DNA of 64,000 nucleotides from Emiliania huxleyi CCMP1516 (Eukaryota): contig NW_005202303.1 of the NCBI RefSeq assembly GCF_000372725.1, forward strand, positions 248,001-312,000, in the 5' to 3' direction. The notes under the pieces were generated by a model. That model saw only the letters and a list, made by a program, of their open reading frames with translations, was not told where the DNA came from and made no database searches. A program made the translations under genes and the position numbers. Positions 262 to 53,856 of this stretch are shown here, in pieces. The first letter of the stretch is position 1. Every line of letters begins with the position of its first letter.

Positions 262-1635
262 GTGAATGCGCGCGACGGCTTCCTGCACGAGTGCGCCCTG
301 CGGCTCGGCGGCAAGAAGCCAGGCGTCGCTGTCTGGCGCCGCCTCAACTTGCTCTTCGAGTGGCTGCCGATGGCGGCGACGGTCAACGGCTGCATCCTGT
401 GCGTACACGGAGGAAGCGTCGCGCCGACAGCGCACGCCTCGGCAAGGCGGCGGTCCTGTGACCCGCCTCGGGGCTGGCCTCTCTCTAGGCATCGGCAAGA
501 CGCTGTGCTCGCTCGAGCAGATTGCAGAGATGCAGCGGCCGCTGCGCGTGGGTGGCCAGCGCGCGGACGGCTCATGCCCCGCCCAGGACGCGTCCACGAC
601 ACGTCCGAGACGGCCTGTCCGCAGGCGGGCAGCACGCGGAGCTGATGCTCGACTTGCTCTGGTCCGACCCGACCAAGTCCGACGCCGTGGAGGGCGCGCA
701 CACATAGCCGATACGTGGCCGAGAGGTGGCCGAGAGGTGGCCGAGAGGTGGCCGAGAGGTGGCCGAGACCAGGTCCGCCGGGGAGGGCGAGCCCCACATC
801 GGCCGACGAGCGAGCGCCTCCCTCCCTCCTCCCCCGAGCGCCTCCCCGCACCTCTAGGCGTCCACATGAACGATGAGCGAGGGTCGCCCGTCGTCTGCTT
901 TGGGCGCGAGATGTAGCCGAGATACAGCCGAGATACAGCCGAGATAAGCGCCGTCGCGTCCCCTCCCTCCTCGCGGCAAGCCGCGGGTGCATCGACGCCC
1001 TCCCCCCATCCCTCGCCAGGCCCGACCGCGTCGCTTCCTTCCTCGCCGCAAACAAGCTCAAGCTCATCGTGCGCGGGCACGAGTGCGTCATGGACGGCTT
1101 CCAGCGCTTCGCGGGCGGCAAGCTCGTCACCGTCTTCTCGGCGACAAACTACTGCAACCGGTGGCAGAACGCGGGCGCGATCCTGCTCATCGGGAAGGAC
1201 CTCGAGATCACGCCAAAGATGATCTTCCCCGTCGAAGAGATCGAGGACGCGTGGCTGCGCTGCGAGGAGGTCGACCACATGCGGCCGCCGACGCCGCCGC
1301 GCGAGCAGGACGACGCCGACGAGGACGCGACGCCGGCGGCCGGAGGGCGCGGGCCCGGGGGTCGCAAGCCGCGCTCGAGCCCGCGCGTGGCGGGCGCGCC
1401 GCCGGTGCCGTCGCCGACGAAGCGCAACCTGTCGGCGAGCTTGGGGTTGGGCGCGATTGCGGAGCGGCGTGCGACTGAGCCGACGGAGGAGGAGGGGGCG
1501 GGCAGCGACGGGGAGCGCGAGGAGCAGGAGCAGGAGCAGGAGGCGAGCGGCGCGACGGAGGCTGCCTCGCCGCAGTCCTCGCCGCAAGAGGAGGAGGAGG
1601 AGGAGGTCCCCATCGGCACTCGCCCGCAGGAGTAG
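262..1635 (+). CDS. PPP-family Ser/Thr phosphatase, BSU1/PPKL-like catalytic domain (multi-exon, 5' part outside window)
   Basis: Spliced exons give ILCVHGGIG, LDLLWSDP, FGPDRV, IVRGHECVMDGFQRFAGGKLVTVFSATNYC, NAGAILLIGKDLEITPKMIFP and RPPTPPR, matching PPP motifs and the BSL/PPKL C-terminal pattern. Confidence 0.85.
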
Positions 1636-2840: not shown

Positions 2841-4580
2841 GGGCTCGCCGGGCGAGGAGCACGGCAGAGACTCGTTTGAGCGCGGCAACCAGCGCTTCGC
2901 GACGCGGCTGTGCGGCTTGTACCGCAAGCCGAGGCTGCGCGACTACTGTGCGTGGCTCGGCTGGGCGGCGCTTCCTCCGCCGAGCCGTTCGCCGCGCGCC
3001 GCCGCCGCCTTCACCGTGTTCACGTCCGGCGCGAGGACGGCGGTCGCGGCAGAGGGGGAGGCTGGTTCCGAGGCGCGGCCGGAAGAGGCGGAGGGGGCGG
3101 CGGAGGGGGTGGCGGCAAGGGCGGCGGCGGGGGAGGGCCGCCGCGGCGGCAGACGCCGACAAGCTCCTCGCGGCGGGCGAGGAGGAGCTGCCAGAGGAGG
3201 AGGACCTGAGGCGGCTCGCGACCGAGGCGCTCGGCGCGGCCGCCGCGACCGGCAGCGCCCGGCTGGTTGCGGCGCTGCTCGCCGCTCGCGCTTCGGCCGA
3301 CGGCGGCGCCTCTCGCGCCGCGCGGGGCCCGACGCCGCTCATGCGCGCCGTCGGGCGAGAGATAGCCGAGAGACAGCCGAGAGACAGCCGAGAGATAGAG
3401 CCGAGAGATAGCCGAGATATGACGCCGCTCGTGCGCGCCGTCGGGCGCGAGAGACGCGTGGCCGCACCGGACCTGCTCGGAAGCTTCTCGGAAGCTTCTC
3501 GGAACCTTCCTGCAGGCACGTGGACGTGCTCGCGACGCGCTGCGGCGGGCGTGACGGTCCGCCTCTCCAGCCACTCGCACGCGAGCGCGGCACACCTCGC
3601 CGCAGCTGGCGGTCACGCTGCCTCGCTCCGGCTGCTGCAGGCGCGCGGCACGTCCGAGCGGACGACGCTGTACCGCCACCCAAAGAGTAGCCGAGACGGG
3701 CTGAGGTTAGGCGCGGGACACGTCCAAGTGGACGGTGCTCTATCACGCGGCATGGGGCGGCCACGCCGAGTGCGTCGCGCTGCTGCTCGACGCGCGAGCG
3801 CGCTGCGACGCCTCTGACCGGTGGGGGAGGTCGCCGCTCTGCTGAGATATAGCCGAGATATAGCCGAGATATAGCCGAGATATAGCCGAGATATAGCCGA
3901 TATATAGCCGAGATAGGTCGCCGCTCTGCTGGGCGTGCTGCCGCGCGCACGAGCGGGTGGTGGCGCTGCTCCTCGAGGCGGGCCCGACGGCAACCGCCGG
4001 CCGCAGCGGGCGCACACGGAGCGGTTCGGCCACGTGTACAGCGCGCCGCTCCACTTGGCGTGCTCGGCGGCGATGCGGACGAGGGGCGAGGGGGCGAGGG
4101 GCCTGGGGGCGGGGAGGAGCGGCGGGAGACAGACGAGGCGGTGGCAGCAGAGGCGACGAGGCAGGCGCCGGGGGAGAGCTCGGCGGGTGGCGCCGCGGCG
4201 GACGTGGCTGCAGGTGGGCGGAGGGTGCGGCCGGACGCTCTAGCCGTCGTCAAGTTGCTCCTGGCCGCGCGCGCAGACGCGAATCGGCGCGACCAGCTCG
4301 GGCGCACGCCGTTGCGCGTCGCGAGCGCGGCTGGCCTCGCAGAGGCAGTGGTGCTGCTCGAGGCCGCGGGGGCGCGGCGAGACGACGAGCCGCGCGCAGG
4401 CTCTGCGCGCCATCGGGAGGAGGCTACTGTGGCGCCCGAGGCTGCCGCTGCGAGCGGCGCGCCGGCACAGGCTGGCGCCGAGAAGCCGTGGCTCCGCGCG
4501 CGCTGCTGGGCGGCGGCGAGTTCGGGTTGGGTTTGGCCACCGGGCGTGGCGCCGCAAAAACTCTCTTGGGAGCTGACTGA
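2841..4580 (+). CDS. Ankyrin-repeat protein (multi-exon; boundaries approximate)
   Basis: TPLMRAVG, HLAAAGGHAASLRLL, WTVLYHAAWGGHAECVALLLDA, RSPLCWACCRAHERVVALLLEAG, VVKLLLAARADANRRDQLGRTPL; possible frameshift near 3130. Confidence 0.7.
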
Positions 4581-5880: not shown

Positions 5881-7019
5881 GAGAGCTCCGAGAGCTCCGA
5901 GAGGAGGCCTTTCGAGTGCTGCGGCCGGTGCGGCGGCGACGCGTCCGACGGTAGCTGCTGCTGCCGCCGCGTCGCTGACGAGGCACACCTCCCTCTGCCG
6001 CGAGAGGGTTCGGTACCGTGGGGGTAGGGGAGGGACGGACGAGTCCCAGTCGTGGGTTCCAGTATTAGGTGGTAGGGGAGGAGTGCCGCCACATCAAGGC
6101 TCATCGGCCATCGGTCACGTTGTTCCCCGTGGGGAGATAGGCCTACCTCTACGGCGCCGCCGCGGCGCTCGTCGAGCTGAGGAGCAGCGAGAGGCATGTC
6201 CAGGACACGTCCATGACGTGTCCGCGACATGTCTTTAGGCGCTCGTCGAGCTGATGAGCAGCGACGTGAGTAACGAGAGGCCCTCGTGCGAGGCGATCCT
6301 CGGCGAGACCAGCCTCGAGGAGGGACGCGTCCCTGGACGCGTCCCTGGACGCGTCCCTGGGGGCGTCCCTGGGGGCGTCCCTGGGGGAATCGCTTTGCTT
6401 GCGCCGGCGGTGCCGTCGATGCCGGGCGCGGCGGGAAGTGCCTTTGTCAAGGTCGGCAGCTCGTCAAGCTCGCGCCTCGCGCCCGGCATCAGCCTGCCTC
6501 CCTCTCCCCCCGAGCCACCGGCCGGACCAGCGCCCACGCCGCCGCCGGAGGACACCGCGCCGGCGCTTCGGCCGTGCTGGCCCTCTGAGCCGACGGGCAG
6601 CTCGGCGCTGCTGCCCGCGTGCGGCGACCTCTCGGGCGGGGGGGCGGCGCAGCTGGGCTTCGGCGCGGTCCTCCTCGTGCTGGCCGTCGGTGCACGTCGG
6701 GTCGGGGGAGGGGGGGGGGTCGTGTCACCTGGACACGTCCATGACCCGTCGATGACCTGACCCCCCCCCCCCCAGGCACATATCTCGGGCCTTGGGTTGC
6801 TGTGCGGGCAGAGTCGCTCGCGCTCGCCTCTCCCCCTCTCGACACAGACGGGGAGAGGAGGGAGAGCGGCGCGGACCACCCCCTGCACGCCTTCCTCCCC
6901 CTCCTCCTCTTCCCCGCCCTCGCTTGCGCCCACGCCATGCTCGGATTCGGACGCCGCTTCAGCGCGGCCGTGGCGGTGCGCCAGCAACCCCCTCCCCTCT
7001 CATCTCGTGCCGCCACCCT

Positions 7020-13685: not shown

Positions 13686-14265
13686 ATTCGGCTCCCTATT
13701 TGAGGCACGAGCCCCGGCGGCGCGCGTGTGTGAGAAGTTAAAATCGGTTCTGCTGCTAATACAAAACGAAAACACAAAAAAGAAAATTGTTACCGGAACA
13801 TTCCAGGAACGTGCTCGTGCCGTGTACTCGGGAGAGGCTAGGTAGCTGCTCTGGCTCCAAGCGATACGAGTCCACCTTACAGTGAGTGCACGCGGCCGGG
13901 GTATAGTGAGGTGGCTTGAGCTCTGTCTGTCAAGGGCACGACCTACTTCCGGTTCGATGGCGCCTAATAATGAAGATGGCGGCCGGCTCTACGCCGGTGT
14001 GCAAGCCGCTATGCATTATTGCATTTTTCGAATGCATTTTCCCCCGGTGGTAAAGAGCCGTATCTGGTATGTGCATGGCTGTGGCCTGTGCGCACCCTCC
14101 CCCGCCCCACTGTGTGTACAGCCTCGAGGGGTAGCAGAGTACTACGCGTTCGCGTACTGTACTGACGTAGGAAGGACGGTGGTACGAGGCAGCGACTAGA
14201 TATGGAGAGTACTCCCTGCGAATTACACTTCACACACTGTAGGTCGACAGAGGGCGATCAGCTCT

Positions 14266-15372
14266 CTAATGCTGGTGACGCTGATCGGCCGCGGCGGAGA
14301 AGGGGAGCTCCGAGTGACACGACGACGACCGCGAGAGAGACATTCGGCGGCGCGACGGGCCGGCGGCGTCCTTGGTGTCGGAGAGGCCCGAGAGGAGCCC
14401 CCACGCGGCAAGAGGCGGCATCCTGCGCAGGAGGGTGCCCACGAACGGCACCAGGAAAGCGGACGCGCACGCGGCCGCGAAGGGCAGCGGCGCGTCGCAC
14501 ACGGCGGTGGCGATGGGGATGGGCAAGTAGGCGCTCGACCTACACAGGGGAAGGTGCCCGGTCAGGGGTGTCCGGGCAGGCTCCGGCCTGGCTCCGAGGA
14601 GGCGGTGGGCGGCTCGACCTCGCCGCCGCGGGGAGGACGAACGCGCCTCCGAGGGCCGCGCCTGAGAGGGTGGTTCCGCGAAGGTCCCGAAGAGGGTCGG
14701 AGGACCTTGCTAGGGCTCCTTTGCGGCCCGCGCGCCGCAGAGAGCTGCCGCGCGGACGTAGCCATCGCGCGCCATGTACGGGTAGCACGCCTGTGCAGGC
14801 ACGCCAAGGAGGTGTCTAGGACGTGTCGTGGACGCGGCTGCTCGGCCGCCAAGTACGGGCGTGCTGTGCGCCTCGACAAAGTCGCCAAACCAGATGTTGA
14901 TGGCGAGCGCGCGGCGGCACGCGGAGCCCTCCTCGGCGCTCGTCGGTCGCGCGGCGACGGCGGCGCACACGCCCGCACACGCACAGCAGAGGCACGAGGC
15001 GTCGAGCGCGCCTAGGGTCAGGATCGGGGATCGGGATAGGATTGGGGTTGAGGTTGGGGTTGGGGCAGGAGGAGGATTGGAGTTGGGGCAAGGGTTAGGC
15101 CCGGCGGGGTCGAGCCTGCTCACAGCGTTTCCTCTTACTTCTTCACAGCCGTTCTTCTGCTCGAGGCACGCGGCGTCGAGCGCGCCGAGGACGGAGAAGG
15201 CGCCGCCCTCCATCTCGAGGAGGATGAGCGGGAGGACCTGCCGCCGCGGGTGATCTCGGGTGATCTCGGGTGATCTCGGTGTATCTCGAGGAGGAGGAGC
15301 GGGGGGACCGCGGCGTGGTAGTAGCCGAGGAGGGGCGAGAGCACGGCACCTAGGGTCAGGGTCAGGGTCAGG

Positions 15373-15405
<33 letters not shown>

Positions 15406-15408
15406 GGG

Positions 15409-15458
<50 letters not shown>

Positions 15459-17339
15459 CAGGAGGTCAGGGGTCGGGGTCAGGGTCAGGGTGAGGGCTTG
15501 GGTGAGGAGCGGCGAGAGCACGACACCGGCCCCGCCGCCCGACCACAGCTGCGCAGGGAGGGCGAGGAGGGCGAGGAGCGAGCGGGTCGCTGCGGCGAAC
15601 GCGGGCGAGAGCAGCAGCGCGGCCACGCCCCCTGCGCACGCCGAGCCGCAAACCGTGTAGAGGGTCGCTGCGGTGGCGGGCAGGCCCAAGTGCAGCGCGT
15701 GCGGCAGCGTGCGGCGGCAAGCGAGGCCGGCGAGGCTGGCCGCCAGCAGCGAGGCGGCGAGGGAGGGGACGGCGGCGTTGGCGAGGGCGGCGGCGAGCAG
15801 CCCTGCCATGGCGCCCGTGCCGTCGGTGCCGCCCTCCTCCCCGTCGAGAGACGCGGCGCGGCGGCCGGCGTGGACACCGGCCGCGGCACCGTTTACCCTC
15901 GTCGCGGCGGCGGCAGCGAGAGGCAGCAGCGCGCGAAGGCCGTCGATGCGGCCGTGCAGCGGCGGCGGCAGAGGCAAGACGGTGGCGGCAGAGGCGGCGG
16001 CCACACAGAGACTGAGCGAGAGAGTGACAGGGAGAGTGGCGTCGAGGACAGGGCCGAGGCCGAGCTGCGGCGGCGGCAGCTGGACAGAGTAGGGCAGCCG
16101 CCAGTGCGCCGCGAGAGCGGCGGCCGCCGCGACGGCGCGGGAGCGCGGCGTAGTGCCGACCGACCCCCCCGCCTCCAAGACAGAGACCCCCATCCTCGCC
16201 GCCTCGCCGAGCGAGCTGCCGCCTGTGCCGACCACGGGCAGGCCCGCCGCCGCGGCGGCGAGCAGCGACGCGCGGTTGGTGCTGCCTAGGCGACGGCTCC
16301 GAGGCAAGGTCCGAGAAGGCTCCCGACAGTAGCGAGGAGCGGTTGGTCGATGCCGGCGTCCGCAGACACGAGGACGAGCGCGTCGATGTCTCCGCGCGCA
16401 ATCACGCCGGCCAGCCGCTCGTCCGCCTTTCGCGCGAGCCGGTTCACAGCGTGCAGCTCGCCTCGCATCCGAATCTGAGGGATCGGACAGCCGCCAGCAG
16501 CAGAAGCAGCCGCAGCCGCCGCCGCCGCCGCCGCCGCGTCTCGTGACGAGAGTCGTCCTCCCTCCCTCCTGCTGACGGCGGCCCGCCCCGAGGCGGCAGG
16601 CGCCGCGTCCGGGAAGCACCACAGCGAGGCGGTCGCGTGCCTGCAGGAGGGTAAGGGAGGAGTGGCAAAGGAGGATGCTAATAATTAGATGCCACAGAGC
16701 GGCGGTCGCGCGCCCTGGAGCGCCGTCCAGCGGCGACTCGCAGCCCACAAACACGAGGAAAGAGAGGTCGATGGCGCCGGAGCCTCGGCCGCCAGCCCCG
16801 CCTGCGCAGCCGCAGCCCTCGTCCGCATACGAGTCGACCTCGTGTGCGCGGCCAATGCCAGCGAGCTGTGCGGCGAGGGCGGAGACGGCCGTCTGCACGC
16901 TGCCTCGCTGCGTCGAGCCGCCGCTCGAGCCGACAAGCGCAACCCGCCTCTCGGGCGGCAGCGGAGTCGAGCGAGGCCGGCCGGGGAGTCCGTCTGGGTC
17001 GAGCATGGTGGCTGGGGCGGCGGTGGGAGCGGGATCGCCACGGCGGGTGCCCGGGATCGGGTCGGCGTCGTGGTGCGATGCAAACGGCGAAAGCGGCCGC
17101 GGCTGAGGAGGCCGCTTTGGCGGCGGAGGTTGCAGCGACGGCACGGTGGCGGCATCCTGGCCGCCAGGGTAGCGTTGAGCGTGATGGCGCTGCTGAAGCC
17201 GCTGTCGTTCGTCGGGCCGCCGCCGCCTTGCCTCGGCGGCATTATTCGCCTTAGCCTCGCCATCGGTCGCGTCCTCGCTGGAGCTGCTGCGGCCCGACGG
17301 CTCGTCGTCGTCCGAGTTGGCGTCCGAATTCCAGTTCAT
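14266..17339 (-). CDS. Multi-pass membrane protein resembling bacterial 'PTS sugar transporter'/EIIC-like permeases (multi-exon; start 17339 or 17005)
   Basis: VALVGSSGG, IDALVLVSAD, PVVGTGGSSL, GSVGTTPRSRAV, YYHAAVLPLILLEME, LGALD, INIWFGDFVEACYPYM, SAYLPIP after removing introns; similarity recalled from Firmicutes proteins. Confidence 0.65.
15350..15500. repeat. Telomere-like (GGGTGA/GGGTCA)n array inside an intron
   Basis: About 24 hexamer units; a more degenerate array lies at 15012-15100. Confidence 0.9.
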
Positions 17340-22665: not shown

Positions 22666-22988
22666 GATTGTGAGCGCAGCCGCTCGCAATCCTAGATAGA
22701 AGTTCTAGGATTGCGAGCGCTACTGCTCGCAATCGGAGGCATGTTGCTAGGATTATGAGCTAAGCTGCTCGCAACCCTAGACTTTGCTCGGATTGCGAGC
22801 GCGATGGTAGTAGTCGTAGCACGTAGGCGTCACCAGTCACCTTGGGAGCGGAGCTGCTCTTAGTCCTAGAAGATGTAGGATTGCGAGCGTAGGCGCTCAC
22901 AATCGCACAGAGATGCTACGATTGCGAGGAGTGCTGCTCACAATCCTTCGACTTCTAGGATTGAGAGCGAGGCTGCTCTCAATCCTAG
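22666..22988. repeat. Array of ~8 palindromic units GATTGCGAGC-N6-GCTCGCAATC, period ~39-43 bp
   Basis: Units start at 22666, 22709, 22751, 22791 (half), ~22841 (degenerate), 22879, 22920, 22959; arms often extend to CTAG...CTAG. Confidence 0.9.
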
Positions 22989-23156
22989 CGGTCTAAAAAG
23001 AAGCTTAAAAGAAGGTTACCCGCACTGGCACCCCCGCGCGTCCTCATCGTCGTCGTCGTCGTCGTCCTCCTCCTCCTTCCTCCTCCTCGCCGTCGTCCTC
23101 GTCGCCCTCCTCGTCTGAGGTCCTCACGTCAGCTCCCTCCTTCCCTGATATGGCAG

Positions 23157-23579
23157 GTGGTCGCGCGCGTCCTCGCCTCGCGCGGCTGCTCGCAGATGCT
23201 CCGCCCTCCCGCTGAGTACGCCGCCGCCTCGTCGACGCTCGACGGCGTAACGGACGCTGAGTTTGCACGTGCGTGGGCGGCGGCCTCTTCGAATGGCTTC
23301 CACCATGTGGGCACCGACGGCAGGGTGCGCCTCCTGCCGACGCGCACCTCGTCGTCGTCGTCGTCGTCGTCCTCCTCCTCCTCCTCCTCGTTGTCCTCCT
23401 CGTCCTCCTCGTCGTCCTCCTCCTCGCCCTCCTCCTCGTGCTCACGAGGCGCCCTCCCTAATATGGCAGGAGCGCTTCCTGCTGTACGCGCACCTCTCCG
23501 TCCTCAACCACTCGTGCGTTCCTAATGCGGCCATCGACGAGGCGCGCGCCGCCGGACGGACGGAAGACCGGCTACGCCC

Positions 23580-23635
<56 letters not shown>

Positions 23636-24747
23636 TCTCCCCTCCCTAATAAGGCAGGCGCGCGCCGCCGAGCGGACGACCGTCTACGCCATACGAGATG
23701 TAACCGCCGGAGAGGAGCTCTGTATCTGCTACTTGCCTGACGCTCTGCCCTGCGCGCCGCCGCCGCTTCGCCGCGCCTTCCTGCGTCACCGCTTTGAGTT
23801 TGAGTGTGAGTGCCCGCGCTGCGCCGGCCGAGCGTGCGACGCGGACGGACGGGACGTGGACGTGGACGGAGCCGGCGGCGGTGGAGGCGGAGGCGGAAGC
23901 ACCGCCGCCGCCGACGTGTTGCTCGAGCAGTTGGCCGAGGGCGCGGGGCGTGCGGAGGCGGCGGCGGCGCAGCACGCGCACCGCGAGCTGGTGCGCGCCA
24001 CAAGCGCCGCCGCCGCCGCCGCCGCCGCCCTCGTCGTCGTCGTCCTCCTCTTCCTCCTCCTCCACCACCTCCTCCTCGTTCTCCCCACCTCTGCTTCTCC
24101 TCTCCCGCGCGCAGGTGCGTGGGCAGCTCGACGAGCGCAAGCGGCTGATCGGCCTGCAGCTCAAGGAGTACTCCTCGTTTGACGAAGCGCTCGCGGCGAC
24201 GGACGCTTTCATGGCCGAGCATGCGCCTCGCCTCGCGACGACGCACTGGATGCGGCACCAGCGCAGGCGAGCACGTGACCTGAGGAGCACGTGACCTGCG
24301 CCACGGGATGCGCCACCAGGCGAGTACGACAGACAGGAGCACGTGAGGCGGAAGCACGTGCGCTGAGCGCGCGTGAGCTGAGCCACTGGGTGCGCCGCCA
24401 GGCATGCTCGCCGCGCACGCCCTCGCCGTCGTCGTCGTCGCTCCTCCTCCACCTCTTCCACGCGGCGGCGGCCTTTCCTTTTGCGGCGGGAGGCAGGTGC
24501 GCTCGCTGCGCAGCCTCGTGCTGCTCGAGCTTCCTAATAAGGCCGTCGGCGCGGCGATGCTCCTCGCCGAGCAGCTCGCCTCCGAGGCGCGCCTGCATGC
24601 ATGCATGCACGGCATGGCATGGCATGGCATGGCACCGCTGCGCCTCGACGCGCTCGCGCGGGTTGAGGAGTGGCTGCGCCGTCCCGGCGGCGTGGCCCCG
24701 CACCGTAGCGCGGCCGCGGCGGCTCGAAGAGCCGGAACGCGCGTGAG
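23157..24747 (+). CDS. SMYD-like SET-domain protein (multi-exon; 5' end not found, 3' end approximate)
   Basis: SNGF, LYAHLSVLNHSCVPNA, VYAIRDVTAGEELCICY and post-SET FEFECECPRC. Confidence 0.75.
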
Positions 24748-36508: not shown

Positions 36509-37419
36509 TCCTCCCACCCTCCCATGCCCCGACTCACCGATCTCCCGATACGCAATCCCGCGCAAGCACTCGAGCCAAACACCGTCGAGGAGCGGGACGT
36601 CTCTCTGGAGCACAGCCAGGACAAGGAATAAGAGTCTAAGAGGCTTGATCCTTGTTCGAGAGTGTTGCCAAGGGTCGGCGCCCTATGTGCGGCTCTGCTT
36701 GGCTGCGGGCTTCGATTTCGCCGCCGGCCCCGCCTGTGGTGGTCGGCGGTCGGGCTGAGAGCGGCGCGTGCCCCACGCGGCCAAGTAGCTCACGCGTTGG
36801 GCGGGTGGCCTTGCGCGCCGCCGCCGCCTTGCGCGCCGCCGCCTCCTTGCCGCTTCGCGCCGCGTGCTCATTCGTCATCACCGCAAGGATGCGGCGGCAG
36901 CGGGCCAGCTGCTCGAGCCCCTCTGCGCCTGTTCGGAACGTGTAGCGGTGGCTGAGACAAGATGCAACCGATGCAGCCGAGGTCTAGCCGAGGTGCAGCC
37001 GATAATTCCCCGAGCGATCCCCGAGATGCTGCCGAGATGTAGCCGAGATCTTGCCGAGGTTGGGGACGCGTCGCGGACTCAATTACAGGTCCGTGACCCC
37101 CCCCCCTCCCAACCCCGCCCCCAACCGCGCGCGCCGGCAGGGGCGGCGGCCTCGTAGTCCGTGTAGAGCCGGTCAACCTTTGGGACGAGACCGGCGATGA
37201 GACCCACAGCGCGGTCAGGGGAGATACGGGGAGATACGGGGAGATACGGGGAGATAGGGGGAGATACAGACCCACAGCGCGGTCAGCTCAGGGTCGAACC
37301 GGTCCTGGACGCGCAGGCGGCCGCGTGATGGACGTGTACGTGTGATGGACGTGTGATGAACGTGTCGCTAGGGGAGGGAGGGGGGGGGGGGAGCGAGAGA
37401 GGGGGAGCGAGAGAGGGGA

Positions 37420-37519: not shown

Positions 37520-38713
37520 TGGAGCATGGCCGAGATGATGGCCGAGGCGGTGGCCGAGGCGGCCCGGGCGGTGGTGGCCGAGGCGGTGGCCGAGGCGGCC
37601 CGAATCGTGCCCGCGAGCATCAGGCTCAGCCACCCATACCTCCGATGCCGCCGGTGCCCAGTCGCTTCATGTCGCCAGATGCCATCTTCGACTCTATCTT
37701 CAACAAGTCCTCCTTTAACGACCCGCTGCCCTCCTTTGGGGCAGAGGCTGCGGCCACGCTGGCCCGCGAAAAGGCGGCACAGGCCGCAAAGGTGGAGATG
37801 GACGCGCTCACAAAGCGATGTGCAGCGGCAGGCGCGCTGCTTCGGCAAGAGAATGCCGAGCTGCAGGCAAAGAACAAAATCCTGCACCGCGAGTGCCGCG
37901 AGTTGCGAGATGCTCTCGCGCGGGAGAAGCAGGCCGGGCTTGCGGCCCAGGGCGCTGCCGATGCCTTGCGAGCGGAGCTCAAGGGCGAACTTAGGGACGC
38001 CCTGGATCGCGAGCGGCAGGCGCAGCAACTGGCGGAGACTGCGAGCGCCGAGCTCGCGGCGGCAACAGGCAGCGGAGCCGGAGGCGCCGCAGAGGGCGGC
38101 CGCAGGAGGGTCCTTCTGCCGCGACCTCGGCCCCCCCAGAGGCGTTGAAGCGCGCGCGCGTATAGAGAGCCACAATGCAAAGAAACCTCATCAAAACATG
38201 TCGACAAAAGAGAGAGAGAACGGTTTCAAGAGAGAGAAGTGAGATGTGTTGTGAGAAAAAAGTTTCAGAAGAGAGAGAGATCGCGGAGATCGCGTGGAGA
38301 TATCTCGAACTACAACAACAACATGTACATGTACATGCGCATGTGCTTCAATCCTCGCTTCGCCCGCTCAGAGAGCCTGTCGAGCTTCGCCCGCTCAGGC
38401 TCAGCCGCCTGCCCTGCTCTCGCTTCTCCTGCATCTTGCGCGCCTGTCGCCGCTCCATCACGAGGGCTAGCTGCCGGTCGGCGCCCGTGGGCGCCTCCCG
38501 AGACGAGGCCGAAGTGCAGTCCACATCGACCGGCTCGGAACCTTCCCGAGAATTCCCGTTCGCGGAGGTCGCGCTCGCGGTTTGGGCGGGTGCCGAGACG
38601 CGGATCTGCTGAACGAGGCGGAGGACAGCGGGAGTCGTGTCGGGCGTGAGGAGGAGTCGCTCGTCGCCGTGCAGAAGGCACCTGGCGGGAGCGTGTGGGT
38701 GGGCTGATGGGTG
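37520..38713. repeat. Near-identical duplicate of ~41862-43033 (3' ends of DnaJ and PDZ genes) between two gaps
   Basis: Matches except a few SNPs/indels (e.g. AACAAAATC vs AACGAAATC). Confidence 0.9.
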
Positions 38714-41531: not shown

Positions 41532-42491
41532 ATGCGACGCGGCTCCAAGCGGCTTGACCCCCATGCGGTTCTGGGCGTCTCACGCAGCGCCAGCAACGAA
41601 GAGGTGCGGGGCGCCTGGCGGAAGCTCGCATCCACCCTGCATCCGGACAAGCACCCAAATGCGAGCGATGCGGAGCGGGCTGAGTTTGAACGCAAATTCA
41701 AGGAACCATCCACCCATTCGGCCGTCGCCTCAGTCCTGCACCGATTATCGTTGACCCGCAATCACTAGGAGGTTGCCGCGGCGTACGCCATGCTCTCCGA
41801 CAAGGAGCAGCGCAATGCGTACGACCGAGGCCAGTCGCAAGCTACAGGGGAAGACGCCGGTGGAGGCAATGGCCGAGATGATGGCCGAGGCGGTGGCCGA
41901 GGCGGCCCGGGCGGTGGTGGCCGAGGCGGTGGCCGAGGCGGCCCGAATCGTGCCCGCGAGCATCAGGCTCAGCCACCCATACCTCCGATGCCGCCGGTGC
42001 CCAGTCGCTTCATGTCGCCAGATGCCATCTTCGACTCTATCTTCAACAAGTCCTCCTTTAACGACCCGCTGCCCTCCTTTGGGGCAGAGGCTGCGGCCAC
42101 GCTGGCCCGCGAAAAGGCGGCACAGGCCGCAAAGGTGGAGATGGACGCGCTCACAAAGCGATGTGCAGCGGCAGGCGCGCTGCTTCGGCAAGAGAATGCC
42201 GAGCTGCAGGCAAAGAACGAAATCCTGCACCGCGAGTGCCGCGAGTTGCGAGATGCTCTCGCGCGGGAGAAGCAGGCCGGGCTTGCGGCCCAGGGCGCTG
42301 CCGATGCCTTGCGAGCGGAGCTCAAGGGCGAACTTAGGGACGCCCTGGATCGCGAGCGGCAGGCGCAGCAACTGGCGGAGACTGCGAGCGCCGAGCTCGC
42401 GGCGGCAACAGGCAGCGGAGCCGGAGGCGCCGCAGAGGGCGGCCGCAGGAGGGTCCTTCTGCCGCGACCTCGGCCCCCCCAGAGGCGTTGA
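41532..42491 (+). CDS. DnaJ-domain protein with coiled-coil C-terminus; intron 41703-41768
   Basis: DPHAVLGV...WRKLASTLHPDKHP...FK|EVAAAYAMLSDKEQRNAYD, then Gly-rich and coiled-coil regions. Confidence 0.9.
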
Positions 42492-42685
42492 AGCGCGCGC
42501 GCGTATAGAGAGCCACAATGCAAAGAAACCTCATCAAAACATGTCGACAAAAGAGAGAGAAAACGGTTTCAAGAGAGAGAAGTGAGATGTGTTGTGAGAA
42601 AAGTTTCAGAAGAGAGAGAGATCGCGGAGATCGCGTGGAGATATCTCTGACTACAACAACAACAACATGTACATGTACATGTGCT

Positions 42686-44837
42686 TCAATCCTCGCTTCG
42701 CCCGCTCAGAGAGCCTGTCGAGCTTCGCCCGCTCAGGCTCAGCCGCCTGCCCTGCTCTCGCTTCTCCTGCATCTTGCGCGCCTGTCGCCGCTCCATCACG
42801 AGGGCTAGCTGCCGGTCGGCGCCCGTGGGCGCCTCCCGAGACGAGGCCGAAGTGCAGTCCACATCGACCGGCTCGGAACCTTCCCGAGAATTCCCGTTCG
42901 CGGAGGTCGCGCTCGCGGTTTGGGCGGGTGCCGAGACGCGGATCTGCTGAACGAGGCGGAGGACAGCGGGAGTCGTGTCGGGCGTGAGGAGGAGTCGCTC
43001 GTCGCCGTGCAGAAGGCACCTGGCGGGAGCGTGTGGGTGGGCTGATGGGTGCGTGGTGTGGTATAAGGGAGGGGAGGGGGGGGGGGCAAGCGAAAAATGG
43101 TGTGAGGGTGAGGGTGAGCGTGTGGGGCATCCGCTCGCGGCGAGCTCACTCGACGCGTGGCGAGACTCGCAGCTGGTGCGGCACGAGGCCGACACCTGTG
43201 CACTCGTGCCACGTTGCTGCGGCGAGGTCGCACAGCTCAGCGGCGGACTCGAGGCGCGACACGTCGAGGAGGGTCTTGAAGCGCGTGCCGGTGGGCGTGA
43301 GCAGGACAGTCGGCACGCCCGTGGCGGACTCGCCGTACGAGACGCGCCTCGCCTTCTCTCGCCTCGAAGCCGAGGAGGAGGGAGGGAGCGCAGCCGCAAG
43401 CGCCGGGCCGTCGTCGCCACCCCACGCCGCAAGTGGAGCCGCTGGGGCGGAGCGTCGCACGGCGAGGGAGAAGCTCGTCGCGGAGGGCCTCTGGCGGAGG
43501 GCCTCCCTCAGCCGGCGACCCGCCAGCGGCACGCCGTCCACCGTGAGCACGGTGTCGCCGATGCGGAGTAAGCCGTCCTCGGCCGCGGCTCCGCCGGCGG
43601 TGAGCTCGAGCACGACGTTCTGCGGCGAGACGACGAGGCCGAGCCCGCCCGCGCCTCGGCGGACGGAGACAGTAACGCCCTCAGCCTCCGCTCTCGCATC
43701 TCGCATCGCGGCGGCGGCGGCGGCGATAGCGGCGGCGGCGGCCTGGGTGGCGGCGGCGGCCTCCACCCTCGCCGCTTCCGCAGCCACCCTCGCCGCTTCC
43801 GCCCGCGCCGCCTCCGCAGCGGCCTCTGCAGACGCGGCGGTGGCGAGGGTGGCGGCGGTGAAGGAGGACGACGACGCGGAGGCGAGGGAGGCGAGGTCCT
43901 CTTCATCCGTCTTTGCCTGGCGGCGGAGCGTGTGGCCGCGGCCAGGGACGACCGCCTCGTCCTCGTCCAAGTCGCCGTCCACGCATCCCGCTCCTCCCGC
44001 CCCCTGCGCCTGCGGCTGGCTGCGCCCATCAGAGGCGGAGGAAGGGCCGCTGCGGCTCCGGGCTGGGACCTCCCTCGCGCGACGGAGCGCAGACGCGCTC
44101 CGCGTGTCTCCCGAAGCCGTCCGCTCTCGCAGGATCCGCTGCACCACATCTGAAGCACTCGACGCCGGCGGTGGAGGGCAGCAGCGAGGCGTCGCCGCCG
44201 GCGTGGACACCGCGGAACTCTCCTGCTGCCCCGAGAGAGAGGGGCTTGCCGCGCAGCCGCGGTCGTCAGGCCTGGAGGCCTCCCGTGACGGCGCAATCTC
44301 CCTGGCCGAGTCGACGGCGAGCATAACCCAGGCCCTCGTTGCCGGACCCTTTGCCACCGCCACCGCCACCGCCGAAGCCGAAACCGCCAGAGCCCGCCCC
44401 TCCGCCGCTGCCGCCGCCACCGTCCTCACCGCCGTCTCTTTCGCCCTTGCCGTCACCTGCTCCGCCCTCAAACTCACCCAGGACCTCGTCGCCGTCTGCC
44501 TGATGCTAGCCCGCAGGCTCTGGTCGGAGGAGGCGACTGGGTCGTCGTCGACCCTCTCGTCCTTGAAGGGGAAGTGGCGTCGCTCGGGCGCGATTGGCCA
44601 GCGAGGCATCCTCCTCGATGACAGCCAGCGCGGCCACTGCAAGGGCAACGACGGCCAGTGCGGCGGCTGCGAGGTTGATGCAGAGGCGTCGTCCGCCACG
44701 GCGCCGGCGCTTGGCTGAACACGGGCACGCGTGGCGCGCACGGCGACGTTGCCCGCCAGGACGAGTAGGAGGCCCACGAGTAGCACCAGCTCTGGTCCGA
44801 AGTAGCCTGTGTGCGGCTGCACCGGCGGAGACGTCAT
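42686..44837 (-). CDS. N-terminal TM + PDZ-domain protein (2 exons)
   Basis: TM LVLLVGLLLVLAG; VRRGAGGLGLVV...GGAAAEDGLLRIGDTVLTVDG PDZ signature; GTGAG donor near 43149 splices to CLLHGDER exon. Confidence 0.7.
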
Positions 44838-44985
44838 TCTCTACCGGCCAGGAGCCCGCGGCGGGCTGCGCCCTCGCACGGCGTTTTCATCGCGTCACGG
44901 TGGAGCCGGGCGGGATTTCTTTTCCAGCCTCTCTGGAGCAGCGCCGGCGCTCGCGACACACTCACTCGGGCCGCCGCCGCCGCTC

Positions 44986-45129
44986 ATGCCGCTCCCGACG
45001 GGCATCGAGACCCCCGCCAAGGGCCCGTCCGTCTCTTACGCGCATACGCGCAGCAGAGGTCTCGCAGAGGCCAAGGGCAAGGCGGTGGCGTCCACGTCGG
45101 GTCGCTCGACCGGCGCTTCACATGACTGA
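44986..45129 (+). pseudogene. Truncated duplicate of RPN5/PSMD12 first exon
   Basis: MPLPTGIETPAKGPSVSYA identical to 50406 onward, then indels and a stop. Confidence 0.8.
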
Positions 45130-45310: not shown

Positions 45311-48300
45311 TCAGCCGCCTGCCCTCCGCCGCACCCTCGCCAACTGCTGCTCGATCGTCGCAACCAGCTTCTGCTGGTACGCGGCCGGCAGCCCGTGCTC
45401 GCTCGCAAACTTGGCCGCGATGGCCGCCGGGTTGTCCCCGGCGTGGACCGGCAGCCGCGCCGACTTGCCTCCCCCGACGCCAACCTCGAGGACCGCGAGC
45501 GCGCTCGAGTCCTTTTGCGCCGCCGCCGGCGCTGAGGGCGGCGCAGCCTCGCACCGCGCGCCCGAGGGGGCGGCGAGCTTCGCCGCCCGCTTCTTTGCTG
45601 CCGCCTCAGCCTCGAGCCTCAGGGAGGGGTTGGAGGCGGCCAGGGCGGCCGCGACTGCCGCCGCCTCCTCGGCCTCCCTCAGCTCCGGGTCCTTGGCGGC
45701 TAGCTGCCGGTCGGCGCCCGTGGGCGCCTCCCTAGATCGCATCGCGGCGGCGGCGGCGGCGATAGCGGCGGCGGCGGCCTGGGTGGCGGCGGCCTCCACC
45801 CTCGCCGCTTCTGCAGCCACCCTCGCCGCTTCTGCCCGTGCCGCCTCCTCCGCCGCCTCCACCTCCTCCTCCACCTCCTCCTCCGCAGCTTCCCACCTTC
45901 CCGCCTCCTCCGTCGCCTCCTTTTCTGCCTCCGCCGCCTCATCCGCCTCCTCTTCCGCCGCCTCCTCCGCCGCCACCCTCGCCGCTTCTGCCTCCGCCTC
46001 CTCCGCCTCCTCCTCTTCAGCCTCCTCCGCCGCCTCCTCCGCCGCCACCCTCGCCGCCTTTGCCTCCTCCGCCTCCTCCGCCGCCCCCGCCGCCTCCGCC
46101 GCCACCCTCGCCAACTGCTGCTCGATCGTCGCAACCAGCTTCTGCTGGTACGCGGCCGGCAGCCCGTGCTCGCTCGCAAACTTGGCCGCGATGGCCGCCG
46201 GGTTGTCCCCGGCGTGGACCGGCAGCCGCACCGACTTGCCTCCCCCGACGCCAACCTCGAGGACCGCGAGCGCGCTCGAGTCCTTTTGCGCCGCCGCCGG
46301 CGCTGAGGGCGGCGCAGCCTCGCACCGCGCGCCCGAGGGGGCGGCGAGCTTCGCCGCCCGCTTCTTTGCTGCCGCCTCAGCCTCGAGCCTCAGGGAGGGG
46401 TTGGAGGCGGCCAGGGCGGCCGCGACTGCCGCCGCCTCCTCGGCCTCCCTCAGCTCCGGGTCCTTGGCGGCTAGCTGCCGGTCGGCGCCCGTGGGCGCCT
46501 CCCTAGATCGCATCGCGGCGGCGGCGGCGGCGATAGCGGCGGCGGCGGCCTGGGTGGCGGCGGCCTCCACCCTCGCCGCTTCTGCAGCCACCCTCGCCGC
46601 TTCTGCCCGTGCCGCCTCCTCCGCCGCCTCCACCTCCTCCTCCTCCGCAGCTTCCCACCTTCCCTCCTCCTCCGTCGCCTCCTTTTCTGCCTCCGCCGCC
46701 TCATCCGCCTCCTCTTCCGCCGCCTCCTCCGCCGCCACCCTCGCCGCTTCTGCCTCCGCCTCCTCCGCCGCCTCCTCTTCAGCCTCCTCCGCCGCCACCC
46801 TCGCCGCTTTTGCCTCCTCCGCCGCCTCCTCTTCAGCCTCCTCCGCCGCCACCCTCGCCGCTTTTGCCTCCTCCGCCTCCTCCGCCTCCTCCGCCGCCTC
46901 CTCCGCCGCCACCCTCGCCGCTTTTGCCTCCTCCGCCTCCTCCGCCGCCTCCGCCGCCTCCTCTTCAGCCTCCTCCGCCGCCACCCTCGCCGCTTTTGCC
47001 TCCTCCGCCTCCTCCGCCTCCTCCGCCGCCTCCTCCGCCGCCACCCTCGCCGCTTTTGCCTCCTCCGCCTCCTCCGCCGCCTCCGCCGCCTCCGCCGCCA
47101 CCCTCGCCGCTTTTGCCTCCTCCGCCTCCTCCGCCGCCTCCGCCTCCTCCGCCGCCACCCTCGCCGCTTTTGCCTCCTCTGCCTCCTCCGCCGCCTCCGC
47201 CTCCTCCGCCGCCACCCTCGCCGCTTTTGCCTCCTCCGCCTCCTCCGCCTCCTCCGCCTCCTCCTCCGCCGCCACCCTCGCCGCTTCTGCCTCCTCCGCC
47301 TCCTCCGCCGCCTCCGCCTCCTCCGCCGCCACCGTCGCCGCTTTTGCCTCCTCCGCCGCCTCCGCCGCCTCCTCCGCCGCCACCCTCGCCGCTTTTGCCT
47401 CCTCCGCCTCCTCCGCCGCCTCCGCCTCCTCCGCCGCCACCCTCGCCGCTTTTGCCTCCTCCGCCTCCTCCGCCTCCTCCGCCGCCTCCTCCGCCGCCAC
47501 CATCGCCGCTTTTGCCTCCTCCGCCTCCTCCGCCGCCTCCGCCGCCCTCGCCGCTTTTGCCTCCTCCGCCGCCTCCGCCGCCTCCGCCGCCTCCTCCGCC
47601 GCCACCCTCGCCGCTTTTGCCTCCTCCGCCTCCTCCGCCTCCTCCGCCGCCGCCCTCGCCGCTTTTGCCTCCTCCGCCTCCTCCGCCGCCTCCGCCTCCT
47701 CCGCCGCCACCCTCGCCGCTTTTGCCTCCTCCGCCGCCACCCTCGCCGCTTTTGCCTCCTCCGCCGCCTCCGCCGCCTCCGCCGCCTCCTCCGCCGCCAC
47801 CCTCGCCGCTTTTGCCTCCTCCGCCTCCTCCGCCTCCTCCGCCGCCGCCCTCGCCGCTTTTGCCTCCTCCGCCTCCTCCGCCGCCTCCGCCTCCTCCGCC
47901 GCCACCCTCGCCGCTTTTGCCTCCTCTGCCTCCTCCGCCGCCTCCGCCTCCTCCGCCGCCACCCTCGCCGCTTTTGCCTCCTCCGCCTCCTCCGCCGCCC
48001 CCGCCGCCTCCGCCGCCACCCTCGCCAACTGCTGCTCGATCGTCGCAACCAGCTTCTGCTGGTACGCGGCCGGCAGCCCGTGCTCGCTCGCAAACTTGGC
48101 CGCGATGGCCGCCGGGTTGTCCCCGGCGTGGACCGGCAGCCGCGCCGACTTGCCTCCCCCGACGCCAACCTCGAGGACCGCGAGCGCGCTCGAGTCCTTT
48201 TGCGCCGCCGCCGGCGCTGAGGGCGGCGCAGCCTCGCACCGCGCGCCCGAGGGGGCGGCGAGCTTCGCCGCCCGCTTCTTTGCTGCCGCCTCAGCCTCGA

Positions 48301-50257: not shown

Positions 50258-50405
50258 TCTCTACCGGCCAGGAGCCCGCGGCGGGCTGCGCCCTCGCACG
50301 GCGTTTTCATCGCGTCACGGTGGAGCCGGGCGGGATTTCTTTTCCAGCCTCTCTGGAGCAGCGCCGGCGCTCGCGACACACTCACTCGGGCCGCCGCCGC
50401 CGCTC

Positions 50406-52533: not shown

Positions 52534-53856
52534 ACACACACGCTCACATTGTCGCCCACCGTGCAGCGGGACCAGGCTTTGAATTGCTGTGGGGCTCCGA
52601 GATGCGGGGGGCAGCCGACGCCCCACACTACAGCATGTGGGAGGCTCACCTTCTAATTATTTAACTATTAATTAACACACTACAGCATGTGGGAGGCTCA
52701 CTTTCTCCCCCCCGTTCGCGCGCAGGGGAGCGACGCCGCGGCGGACCGCTGCCTCAAGCAGCAGGTCCTCTACCTGGTGCTCTCGAAGTGCGGACTGGAC
52801 CCGAGATCGCCCCGAGATACCGAGGCTGGGCCGAGATACCGAGGCTGGGCCGAGAGTTGCGGCTCCCCCACCTCGCCCTCTCCGAGGGTGCTCGCACGCG
52901 GCTTGCCCGCCACGCGCGCGTCTGTGCCCACACCCCCCGCCAGCCGCCGCCGCCGCGGCAGCGGCAGCAGCCAGAGCCCGCCTCTGGCCGCCTCGCATGA
53001 TCGCCTGCTGCGTGGGCAGGTATGATAACGAGCAGTCGGACCAGATGCACGCGCTGCAGAAGGAGAAGCGGCTCGCCAAGCTCCCCCTCTACGACTCCCT
53101 GCTCAAGGCCTTCATCACCAAGGAGGTTTTCAAGTTCGAGGATGTGAAGCCGGGCGTCGCCGCCGAGCTCGTGGCCATTGGCGACTTCGACGAGGGCGCG
53201 CCGCGGAAGGAGGATGAGTCGAGAGGGGGGGGGGGCGAGAGTGGCCGGGGTGACCCGAGGCTCCTCCGAGGCCGCAGGCCAGCAGAAGGAGATGCTCGAG
53301 ACGCTGCACCGCCGCGTGACGCAGCACAACATTCTGACGATCGGCGCCAGCCTCCCGCTCCGCGCTGGCGCCTTCTCTGTCGCGTCTTCACGCCGCCGAG
53401 CCTGCGAGACAGGCGGCTACTATGCGCGGATCCAGCTCTCGCGTCTCGCGCAGCTCCTCGCGCTCCCGCTCGACGAGGCCGAGAAGCAGCTCTGCGAGAT
53501 TGTCTCGGACAAGTCCATCTACGCGCGCGTCGACCGGCGCGCCTGCCTAGACACCGCCTCCCCTCGGTCAACGAGGGAGGGAGAGAGAGGCGAGCCAGCG
53601 GTTACCAGCGGCTGAAGGAGGCCGCGAGCAGCAAGCATAGCTCGCCATTGCGGCTTGAGACGGCCCTTCCCACGCCCCCTCCCACCACTTTGCCCGTCCG
53701 CCCTCACGCAGGCCTGCTGGGATTGTGCGCTTCGCCGCGACGAAGACGCCAAACGAGCTGCTCAACGACTGGTCGGACGACATCTCGCAGCTGCTCAACA
53801 CGCTCGAGTCGACCTGCCACCTCATCCACAAGGAGAACATGGTGCACAAGATCTGA
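50406..53856 (+). CDS. RPN5: 26S proteasome non-ATPase regulatory subunit 12 (multi-exon)
   Basis: LLSKRRAQLKQA, EGKMYVEVERARLT, MDKREKTDFILEQIRLCL, RVTQHNI, YYARIQLSRLAQLL, LLNDWS, CHLIHKENMVHKI. Confidence 0.95.
52231..52542. repeat. ~310-bp compound (CA)n microsatellite in RPN5 intron
   Basis: Direct inspection. Confidence 0.95.

What the first reader, a model, noticed from the sequence alone, without database searches (positions are those of the whole stretch)
14540..16353. Introns that begin with a copy of the next exon's start: signature of duplication-driven intron gain
Seen: in the PTS-like gene (minus strand) intron 15012-15185 starts GCGCGCTCGACGCCGCGTGCCTC and the next exon starts GCGCGCTCGACGCCTCGTGCCTC. 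Intron 15238-15308 starts GTCCCCCCGCTCCTCCTCCTCGAGAT vs exon GTCCTCCCGCTCATCCTCCTCGAGAT. Intron 15350-15526 starts GTGTCGTGCTCTCGCCGCTCCTC vs exon GTGCCGTGCTCTCGCCCCTCCTC. Introns 14540-14618 and 16286-16353 show decayed copies. The remainder of several introns is simple-repeat filler. Inference: a staggered break or slippage duplicates ~10-26 nt at a G|G(T/C) proto-splice site and low-complexity DNA ending in AG is inserted, creating an intron with no protein change. Partial conversion by spliced cDNA is an alternative. A bacterial-type gene must have gained all its introns, so it is an ideal witness.
Basis: partly seen in the sequence, partly recalled or inferred. Interest (0 to 1): 0.85.

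Follow-up and report, generated by a model that had tools for sequence, protein, structure and literature searches.

The report
Alga's introns born with exon copies
In the bloom-forming alga Emiliania huxleyi, 12 of 49 introns examined begin with a decaying 15-32-base copy of the exon that follows them, likely the scar of a recurring insertion process that creates new introns without changing the protein and that may help explain the alga's unusual GC splice donors.

Summary
Confirmed and wider than reported. The window is Emiliania huxleyi. The gene has 8 introns; RNA contigs join across 6. Six of the 8, and 12 of 49 introns in 11 genes, start with a 15-32-nt copy of the next exon; the mirror pattern is 0 of 49. 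Three haptophyte-like orthologue loci lack all 8 introns, and two RPN5 introns at widely shared positions lack the copy, so gain is favoured. The copy begins within 2 nt of the junction in 12 of 12; a simulation of random filler plus selection expects 13-22%. So the insert probably arrives already ending in an acceptor, or an existing intron was overwritten from cDNA. Fillers are short repeat families shared between genes; 11 of 12 lack terminal inverted repeats. It works like a 'carry 3', co-opt 5'' Introner but with long, variable duplications. No intron-less allele was shown, and the 177- and 71-nt junctions are not RNA-confirmed. Ten searches found no description of the pattern; the 2013 genome paper was not held. 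The scan noted single similar introns in other genomes.

The parts
14265..17339 (-). Host gene, 9 exons, 758-codon model; membrane protein whose bacterial relatives have weak PTS-EIIC similarity; overlaps the mis-spliced model EMIHUDRAFT_222267
   Evidence: Open spliced model; homologues; EIIC hits below cut-off
16641..16713 (-).
   Evidence: RNA joint in X11 and X13
16286..16353 (-). Intron 2, 68 nt, GC-AG; decayed gapped copy of about 26 nt
   Evidence: RNA joint in X11 and X13
15350..15526 (-). Intron 3, 177 nt, GT-AG; 21 of 23 copy, then a telomere-like hexamer array; in frame and stop-free; junction inferred, not shown in RNA
   Evidence: masked the array and shows 42 unexplained letters in one contig
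15238..15308 (-). Intron 4, 71 nt, GT-AG; 24 of 26 copy, then a 10-mer array whose unit overlaps the copy's last 6 nt; acceptor supported by an RNA piece end, donor inferred
   Evidence: X11 piece starts at 15238; homologue alignment
15012..15185 (-). Intron 5, 174 nt, GC-AG; 22 of 23 copy; the intron copy keeps the Ala codon found in several orthologues where the exon has Ser
   Evidence: RNA joint in X11; P0034 spliced, P0033 read-through
14791..14871 (-). Intron 6, 81 nt, GC-AG; gapped copy; filler shares 22 of 23 nt with the phosphatase intron 552-624
   Evidence: RNA joint in X11 and X13
14662..14735 (-). Intron 7, 74 nt, GC-AG; no significant copy
   Evidence: RNA joint in X11
14540..14618 (-). 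Intron 8, 79 nt, GT-AG; 7-nt exact start, borderline
   Evidence: RNA joint in X11; positive, negative
552..624 (+). Same signature in a BSU1-like phosphatase gene (decayed, gapped)
   Evidence: RNA joint in 4 of 4 runs
3641..3710 (+). Same signature in an ankyrin gene (25 of 32)
   Evidence: RNA joint row in X13 (table 5c)
3830..3916 (+). Youngest-looking case: 15 of 15 copy plus a nearly pure 11-mer array that ends in AG; donor placed from the copy and the reading frame
   Evidence: RNA pieces start at 3915
6165..6238 (+). 25 of 26 copy plus a hairpin filler (z -6.5); donor placed from the copy and the reading frame
   Evidence: RNA piece starts at 6238
23325..23469 (+). Same signature in a SET-domain gene; filler and 3' end resemble the next intron's
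   Evidence: no RNA laid here
23542..23657 (+). Same signature in the SET-domain gene (19 of 21 in the local alignment)
   Evidence: no RNA laid here
3331..3452 (+). Copy-array-copy event whose 32-nt copy spans an exon end and the existing donor: a genomic duplication that spliced cDNA cannot template
   Evidence: 30 of 32, filler wholly tandem repeat
37200..37286 (+). Second copy-array-copy event, 19 of 19, apparently across a donor of a minus-strand gene; read on the plus strand the array ends in CAG
   Evidence: gene structure read by eye, no RNA

Best explanation
These introns start with a 15-32-base copy of the next exon and likely arose when a short repeat-family fragment already ending in a splice acceptor was inserted into coding DNA with a long target-site duplication, the upstream copy then likely serving as the donor. 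Steps: (1, shown) the layout is exon | copy | filler ending in YAG | exon, and six such junctions of the gene are spliced so that one copy remains. (2, inferred) two offset nicks 15-30 nt apart duplicate the target; the insert's 3' end is joined at the first nick, often sharing a G or AG with the target. (3, inferred) because this alga accepts G|GC, G|GT and G|GA donors, the duplicated coding sequence supplies the donor and the mRNA is restored exactly. (4, shown for 7 copies) the copies then differ at all codon positions, as expected if the intron copy decays freely. (5, inferred) the fillers are copied from other introns or their repeat arrays, which would explain families shared between genes. 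The enzyme is unknown; nick-primed copying, as in non-LTR retrotransposition or templated end joining, fits best.
For: 12 of 49 introns positive, mirror 0 of 49. All 8 positions are uninterrupted in the held DNA of L002, L003 and L004, and P0003-P0006 are single ORFs on contigs of up to 8-10 kb; these rows flank the window's gene inside a 12-row clade with support 99 in a quick tree. Two RPN5 introns at widely shared positions (51 of 154 homologue alignments end at residues 127-130, 20 start at residue 50) have no copy, and RPN5, ASD and SNO/PDX2 together have 0 of 19. The junction lies within 2 nt of the copy's left edge in 12 of 12; inserts that are intron 3' ends give 59-74% in simulation, random ends 13-22%. 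Fillers of different genes match in the sense orientation (22 of 23 nt; best sense score 20.5, best antisense 12). Intron 3830-3916 is wholly copy plus array. Two copy-array-copy events span a donor, so the process acts on genomic DNA. The same layout is described for Introners with short duplications (PMC9860276).
Against: No intron-less E. huxleyi allele was shown: DNA runs X5 and X10 run unbroken through 6 of the 8 introns, and four ENA read-through proteins carry the introns they cover. No genome of a sister species was available, and my searches favour intronless orthologues. Even the pre-formed-end model gives 12 of 12 only with probability 0.002-0.03, whereas cDNA conversion predicts it exactly; the simulation's splice-site model comes from 49 introns and has no branch point. 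The array at 3331-3452 does not end in AG in either orientation. Fillers of the 12 are at most 67% alike overall, so no donor element was found. The contrast between core and other genes was drawn after seeing the data. One wild contig does not fit intron 3.
Confidence: 0.55

Rival explanations
1. Partial conversion: an intron that already existed had its 5' end overwritten when the exon end was extended 15-30 nt on a spliced cDNA and then rejoined; the introns were gained earlier by other means.
For: Predicts exactly the 12 of 12 coincidence of copy edge and junction and the match of donor and exon dinucleotides (28 of 40). The introns are fixed in the two DNA runs laid.
Against: Cannot make the two donor-spanning duplications. 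Gives no reason why core genes have 0 of 19 and why two ancient positions lack the copy. Intron 3830-3916 has no old remainder. Direct mRNA templating would give the mirror pattern (inference from strand polarity), which is 0 of 49.
Confidence: 0.2
2. One reading: undirected staggered breaks or slippage duplicate a few bases, random low-complexity DNA is added, and selection keeps the rare events that splice cleanly (the Daphnia-type route).
For: Copy-array-copy events exist outside new introns; simulated yield is 0.8-6% of events; telomere-like hexamers and microhomology at the copy/filler join resemble telomeric insertions at breaks (PMC7215372 passages).
Against: It predicts that 78-87% of survivors use an AG inside the duplication and so share 3 or more nt with the previous exon; 0 of 12 do, including 5 copies at 91-100% identity that have had little time to decay.
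Confidence: 0.15
3. Rescue of an expanded coding repeat: a repeat inside the exon grew, and a later template switch placed a second copy of the upstream bases behind it, so the exon copy is the new one.
For: Fits intron 3 only: the spliced model lacks 6 residues against all 12 homologues shown, the intron reads in frame without a stop, and one wild RNA contig seems to carry the intron-type copy plus 42 other letters.
Against: The other 7 junctions align to homologues without such a gap; 8 of 12 positive introns are not multiples of three; it rests on coordinates of one contig whose letters I could not see.
Confidence: 0.07
4. Chance similarity in GC-rich DNA, splice-site consensus, or assembly error.
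For: The window is about 57-76% GC by 2-kb bin, repeat-rich and holds segmental duplications.
Against: Permutation tests with the first 2 or 6 nt removed, the null mirror test, RNA joints, and the same two copies in independent DNA contigs.
Confidence: 0.02

Closest known systems
[quoted passage not shown]
   Same: Same layout: donor from duplicated host sequence, acceptor from the insert, no change in mRNA.
   Different: Published duplications are 3-9 bp and elements are multi-copy, often with terminal inverted repeats. Here copies are 15-32 nt and variable, fillers are at most 67% alike, and 11 of 12 have no inverted ends. Introner screens list only small E. huxleyi families: 5 families, 653 elements, duplication '?' or none; 3 families of 5, 6 and 45 copies, one noted as '10bp terminal direct repeats, co-opt 5' carry 3''. 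That last family may be a corner of the same process; I could not see its sequence.
Intron gain at staggered double-strand breaks in Daphnia pulex (PMC4202315, passages)
   Same: New intron with a direct repeat of an adjacent exon end and added DNA.
   Different: Daphnia repeats are 4-12 bp and the introns are polymorphic; here 15-32 nt, always the downstream exon, and fixed in the samples seen.
Tandem genomic duplication, AGGT model (PMC3443670, passages)
   Same: Donor derived from duplicated exon sequence; precise gain.
   Different: There the duplication supplies both sites and the whole intron. Here 38-154 nt are filler, and the AG lies outside the duplication in 8 of 12.
Identically repeated intron boundaries of dinoflagellates (PMC5032977, passages)
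   Same: Repeat at both splice sites that occurs once in the mRNA; GG at the junction.
   Different: 2-9 bp, identical, described as exon end against intron end; that orientation is null here (0 of 49).
Interstitial telomeric insertions at breaks (PMC7215372, passages)
   Same: Hexamer arrays, microhomology at the join, occasional target duplication (3 of 66 loci in that paper's table).
   Different: Only 2 of the 12 fillers here are telomere-like; no link to intron creation in the passages seen.

Membership tests
Introner (TIR DNA-transposon type) | Many near-identical copies in unrelated genes | tested here: inconclusive
   Among 12 fillers the best global identity is 67%, with one 22-of-23 local match; only 64 kb could be searched, no genome was held
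Introner (TIR DNA-transposon type) | Terminal inverted repeats | tested here: not met
   11 of 12 fillers reach at most 6 of 8 matches; only 6191-6238 is a hairpin
Introner (TIR DNA-transposon type) | Short fixed-length target-site duplication (3-9 bp) | tested here: not met
   Copies of about 15-32 nt, variable
Introner (carry 3', co-opt 5') | Donor from the duplication, acceptor from the insert, mRNA unchanged | tested here: met
   12 of 12 positive introns; RNA joints for 6 of them
Tandem genomic duplication (AGGT model) | Both splice sites lie in the duplicated segment and the intron is all duplicate | tested here: not met
   Only G shared upstream in 8 of 12, AG in 4 of 12; fillers of 38-154 nt
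Staggered-break intron gain (Daphnia type) | Direct repeat shared by the new intron and one adjacent exon | tested here: met
   longer than the 4-12 bp reported
Staggered-break intron gain (Daphnia type) | Intron absent from close relatives or from some alleles | tested here: inconclusive
   Absent from distant orthologues; present in X5, X10 and four ENA proteins; one unexplained contig; no sister-species DNA
Non-LTR (target-primed) insertion | Variable-length duplication with a 3'-anchored, 5'-truncated insert (definition recalled, from no call) | tested here: inconclusive
   Variable length met; longest shared 3' end 11 nt; one donor-spanning array ends in CAG and one does not
Non-LTR (target-primed) insertion | A reverse transcriptase/endonuclease partner and a transcribed source element | not testable with these tools
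   No genome held
Dinoflagellate IRIB | 2-9 identical bases at the exon end and the intron end | tested here: not met
   Shared upstream length is 0-2 in 46 of 49, 4 in 3 of 49; mirror test null
PTS EIIC (host gene) | Score above the PF02378 or TIGR cut-off | tested here: not met
   Best Pfam 19.4 bits against 30.7, in a bacterial relative; none for P0003, P0006, P0009, P0012

The most novel reading that the evidence does not exclude
E. huxleyi runs a self-feeding intron factory without a dedicated transposon: 3' ends of existing introns are copied into nicked coding DNA by target-primed synthesis, leaving 15-30-nt duplications whose upstream copy becomes the donor. This would have made a large share of its introns within the last few million years, and would account for both its intronic 10-11-mer families and its GC-majority donors, since donors are drawn from GC-rich codons.
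Probability: 0.3. Interest if true: 0.88.

Novelty: new variant of a known kind. Interest (0 to 1): 0.66.

Why it matters
How new spliceosomal introns arise is still open for most gains; the review read lists 5 unambiguous break-repair cases and 188 tandem-duplication cases. If a quarter of introns in this window reflects the genome, E. huxleyi would hold thousands of datable events (extrapolation from one window), each carrying its own clock in the divergence of the two copies. They are largely invisible to Introner screens, which need similar intron bodies. Public genomes and RNA-seq of E. huxleyi strains and Gephyrocapsa species make the mechanism directly testable. It offers a possible cause for the 56-65% GC donors reported in PMC4028052. 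Practically, the copies mislead gene finders: the public model of this gene reads into two intron copies.

Tried and rejected
No whole genome was held, so the genome-wide test was replaced by 49 hand-annotated introns. The 19-kb RNA lay showed only 15 of 113 joints and none for this gene; the narrow lay fixed that except around the masked hexamer array. An unfiltered scan for acceptor-anchored repeats was swamped by the 45.8-48.0 kb repeat, and the filtered repeat scan was too strict and dropped four known copies; I used it only to find donor-spanning events. A viral-contig scan with an RPN5 exon found no relative among 50 candidates. Pfam found nothing in 4 window exons. Five of 6 fillers folded no better than shuffles, so a general hairpin element was rejected. 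Enrichment of in-frame introns was rejected (4 of 12 are multiples of three). Positive introns are not clearly shorter (p 0.07). Same-gene filler similarity is weak (p 0.046). The careful tree did not finish; the quick tree has a midpoint root and a long brown-algal branch, so no donor or direction of transfer is claimed. The minus-strand gene at 10.9-11.7 kb has no Pfam hit; my script label for it is not an identification. A transcript-derived protein across introns 3 and 4 was sought and not found.
Full report
Setting. The best protein hit of the long third exon is EMIHUDRAFT_222267 of Emiliania huxleyi CCMP1516, 97% identical over the aligned part. The window has GC-AG introns and 10-11-mer arrays; a GC majority of donors (56-65%) and frequent intron retention are published for this species (PMC4028052, passages). 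No whole genome was held.

The observation. The three strong cases are exact as stated: 22 of 23, 24 of 26 and 21 of 23 matches between intron start and next-exon start. An 8-intron model gives an open frame of 758 codons that aligns with homologues across all junctions. RNA contigs give joints for the 73-, 68-, 174-, 81-, 74- and 79-nt introns, three of them in two studies; these are 6 of 13 joint rows, the other 7 having sides of 20-23 letters. Protein P0034 is the spliced product of the last four junctions. The 177- and 71-nt introns are not shown as joints because the tool masked 15346-15504. Contig 9 of run X11 has 83 letters between 15527 and 15237 where the model has 41. It shows no difference rows at the two places where intron copy and exon copy differ, and little depth on the 41-nt exon, so it may be an allele with one copy and a short in-frame array. 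This is one contig whose letters I could not see. At the same place the model lacks 6 residues against all 12 homologues shown. It stays unexplained.

More than chance, and wider. I annotated 40 introns in 7 genes by reading frame and then 9 more in 4 genes; annotation was not blind to the copies. Sixteen have RNA support from joints or piece coordinates. With an anchored extension, 11 of 40 exceed the 99th percentile of mismatched pairs, 9 of 40 with the first 6 nt removed, and 0 of 40 in the mirror test. With local alignment, 12 of 49 are positive and 0 of 49 in the mirror. Permutations reaching the observed mean: 0 of 100000 for all 49, for 44 without the reported five, and for the 16 RNA-supported; 12 for 39 without this gene and two donor-inferred introns; 112 for the later 9. 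By gene: host gene 6 of 8, ankyrin 2 of 3, SET 2 of 3, membrane protein 1 of 6, phosphatase 1 of 4, 2OG oxygenase 0 of 1, RPN5 0 of 11, ASD 0 of 5, SNO/PDX2 0 of 3, ACBP fusion 0 of 3, unnamed gene 0 of 2 (names). The split 12 of 25 against 0 of 24 gives p 9e-5, or 0.003 without the host gene, but I drew the groups afterwards.

Gain or old introns? A metagenome scan returned 79 loci. L002, L003 and L004 (L005 and L008 are near copies of L004) encode the whole protein in one frame, uninterrupted at all 8 positions; L003 (8 kb) and L004 (from a 37-kb contig) carry other genes and so are DNA. L001 covers only part and changes frame at a different place. P0003-P0006 are single ORFs with cluster contigs of up to 8-10 kb. 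In a quick tree these rows, the window's gene and a Prymnesium parvum protein form a 12-row clade with support 99, apart from 15 prokaryote-type rows. The introns therefore arose on the branch to Emiliania, unless several lineages lost all eight; the searches favour intronless copies, and the lineages are unnamed. As a control, ORFs of other eukaryotes read into introns of RPN5: 51 of 154 alignments end at residues 127-130 and 20 start at residue 50, the positions of introns 51319 and 50553. Neither has a copy. Within the species the introns look fixed: DNA runs X5 and X10 show no joint at any intron and span six of them whole, and four ENA proteins read through those they cover, with small filler and donor variants. 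Five differences in 72 nt, at the rate of 5.18e-8 per year given in PMC7486954 (passages), date the three best copies to about 0.7-1.3 Myr, range 0.2-3.1; this is biased young because copy ends were set by alignment, but it is older than the 290-kyr species age and so consistent with fixation.

Anatomy and mechanism. In 12 of 12 the copy begins at the junction, sharing only G (8) or AG (4) upstream. I simulated duplications of 15-32 nt in the window's coding sequence with filler between, keeping events with usable splice sites. Randomly ended filler leaves 13-22% with so short an overlap, because most survivors use an AG inside the duplication; filler that is an intron 3' end leaves 59-74%. 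The splice model is crude (49 sites, no branch point), so this ranks the models rather than proving one. Fillers are 38-154 nt and belong to a few families: introns of two genes 14 kb apart share 22 of 23 nt, best sense score 20.5 against antisense 12. No pair exceeds 67% overall and 11 of 12 lack inverted ends. Intron 3830-3916 is a 15-of-15 copy plus an 11-mer array ending in AG, with nothing else. Two further copy-array-copy events include a donor inside the copy (3331-3452, 37200-37286), which spliced cDNA cannot template; one array ends in CAG on one strand, the other in AG on neither. I conclude that insertion with a long target duplication, the insert bringing the acceptor, is most likely (0.55); cDNA conversion of earlier-gained introns remains (0.2), as does undirected repair with selection (0.15). 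The enzyme is inferred, not shown.

What is known. The layout equals the 'carry 3', co-opt 5'' Introner class (PMC9860276: passages, one section part, supplement rows), but duplication length, inverted repeats and family identity do not match. That paper's table lists 653 elements in 5 E. huxleyi families with duplications undetermined or absent. PMC12130899 (passages, section 6, supplement rows; files 13-14 not searched) lists 3 families, one of 5 copies with '10bp terminal direct repeats, co-opt 5' carry 3''. Daphnia repeats are 4-12 bp (PMC4202315, passages); dinoflagellate boundary repeats are 2-9 bp (PMC5032977, passages); the AGGT duplication model is in PMC3443670 (passages). PMC6142364, PMC11282704 and PMC7215372 were seen as passages and do not describe this pattern there. 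Ten full-text searches gave no paper whose listing or passages describe long next-exon copies in E. huxleyi introns. The 2013 genome paper was not held; from memory it reports intronic 10-11-bp repeats, and its supplement may bear on novelty. The 2016 Introner paper is recalled only. This scan's notes hold single similar introns in fungi, a marine protist and a euglenid, none for this genome; I did not test them.

Verdict. A real, RNA-backed and recurrent signature of intron origin, a new variant of duplication-flanked intron gain, with the exact mechanism open and directly testable. Interest 0.66.

Noticed in passing
window 3331-3452 and 37200-37286: Copy-array-copy events whose copy spans an existing donor, so the insertion is hidden inside the intron.
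   Followed up: partly
window 15238-15527: One wild RNA contig (X11) has 42 more letters than the model; possibly an allele with one copy, a short in-frame hexamer array and no intron.
   Followed up: partly
window 6191-6238: Intron filler folds into a near-perfect hairpin (z -6.5); the same 10-mer family occurs in at least four introns of three genes.
   Followed up: partly
window 23142-23157, 23452-23469, 23640-23657: Three acceptors of the SET gene share a near-identical 14-18-nt 3' end; a similar end is seen at 25530 on the minus strand.
   Followed up: partly
window 14791-14871, 15012-15185, 15350-15526: Three introns of the host gene are in frame and stop-free, so retention would add residues rather than truncate.
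   Followed up: partly
P0001 (model of the host gene): The public gene model reads into two intron copies and drops part of exon 3.
   Followed up: yes
window 413, 51817, 54747: Three of 49 donors are GA; the first has an RNA joint in 4 of 4 runs.
   Followed up: partly
window 37520-38713 and 41861-43051; 44495-45044 and 49915-50464; 45315-48382: Near-identical segmental duplications at 96-99% (one pair at 91%), one including the RPN5 5' end; some may be assembly effects.
   Followed up: no
window about 30330: The ASD gene appears to shift frame by one base near its 3' end, read by eye; probably a sequencing error.
   Followed up: no
window 57615-59541 (minus): Gene joining an acyl-CoA-binding domain to a region that looks like a FabH-type synthase (recalled, no Pfam hit in the exon scanned).
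   Followed up: partly
window 22666-22990: Array of about 40-nt units with matches on both strands, upstream of the SET gene.
   Followed up: no
window about 60430-60960: Inverted ends of about 40 nt around a GC-rich repeat, seen by eye; MITE-like.
   Followed up: no
window 45840-48026: Long Ala/Glu-rich repeat array with 57- and 114-nt periods.
   Followed up: no
window 52624-52706: 31-nt direct repeat (30 of 31) with an AT-rich spacer inside an RPN5 intron.
   Followed up: no
P0008; L001:138-356: Two orthologues seem to have introns of their own at positions different from the window's eight.
   Followed up: partly
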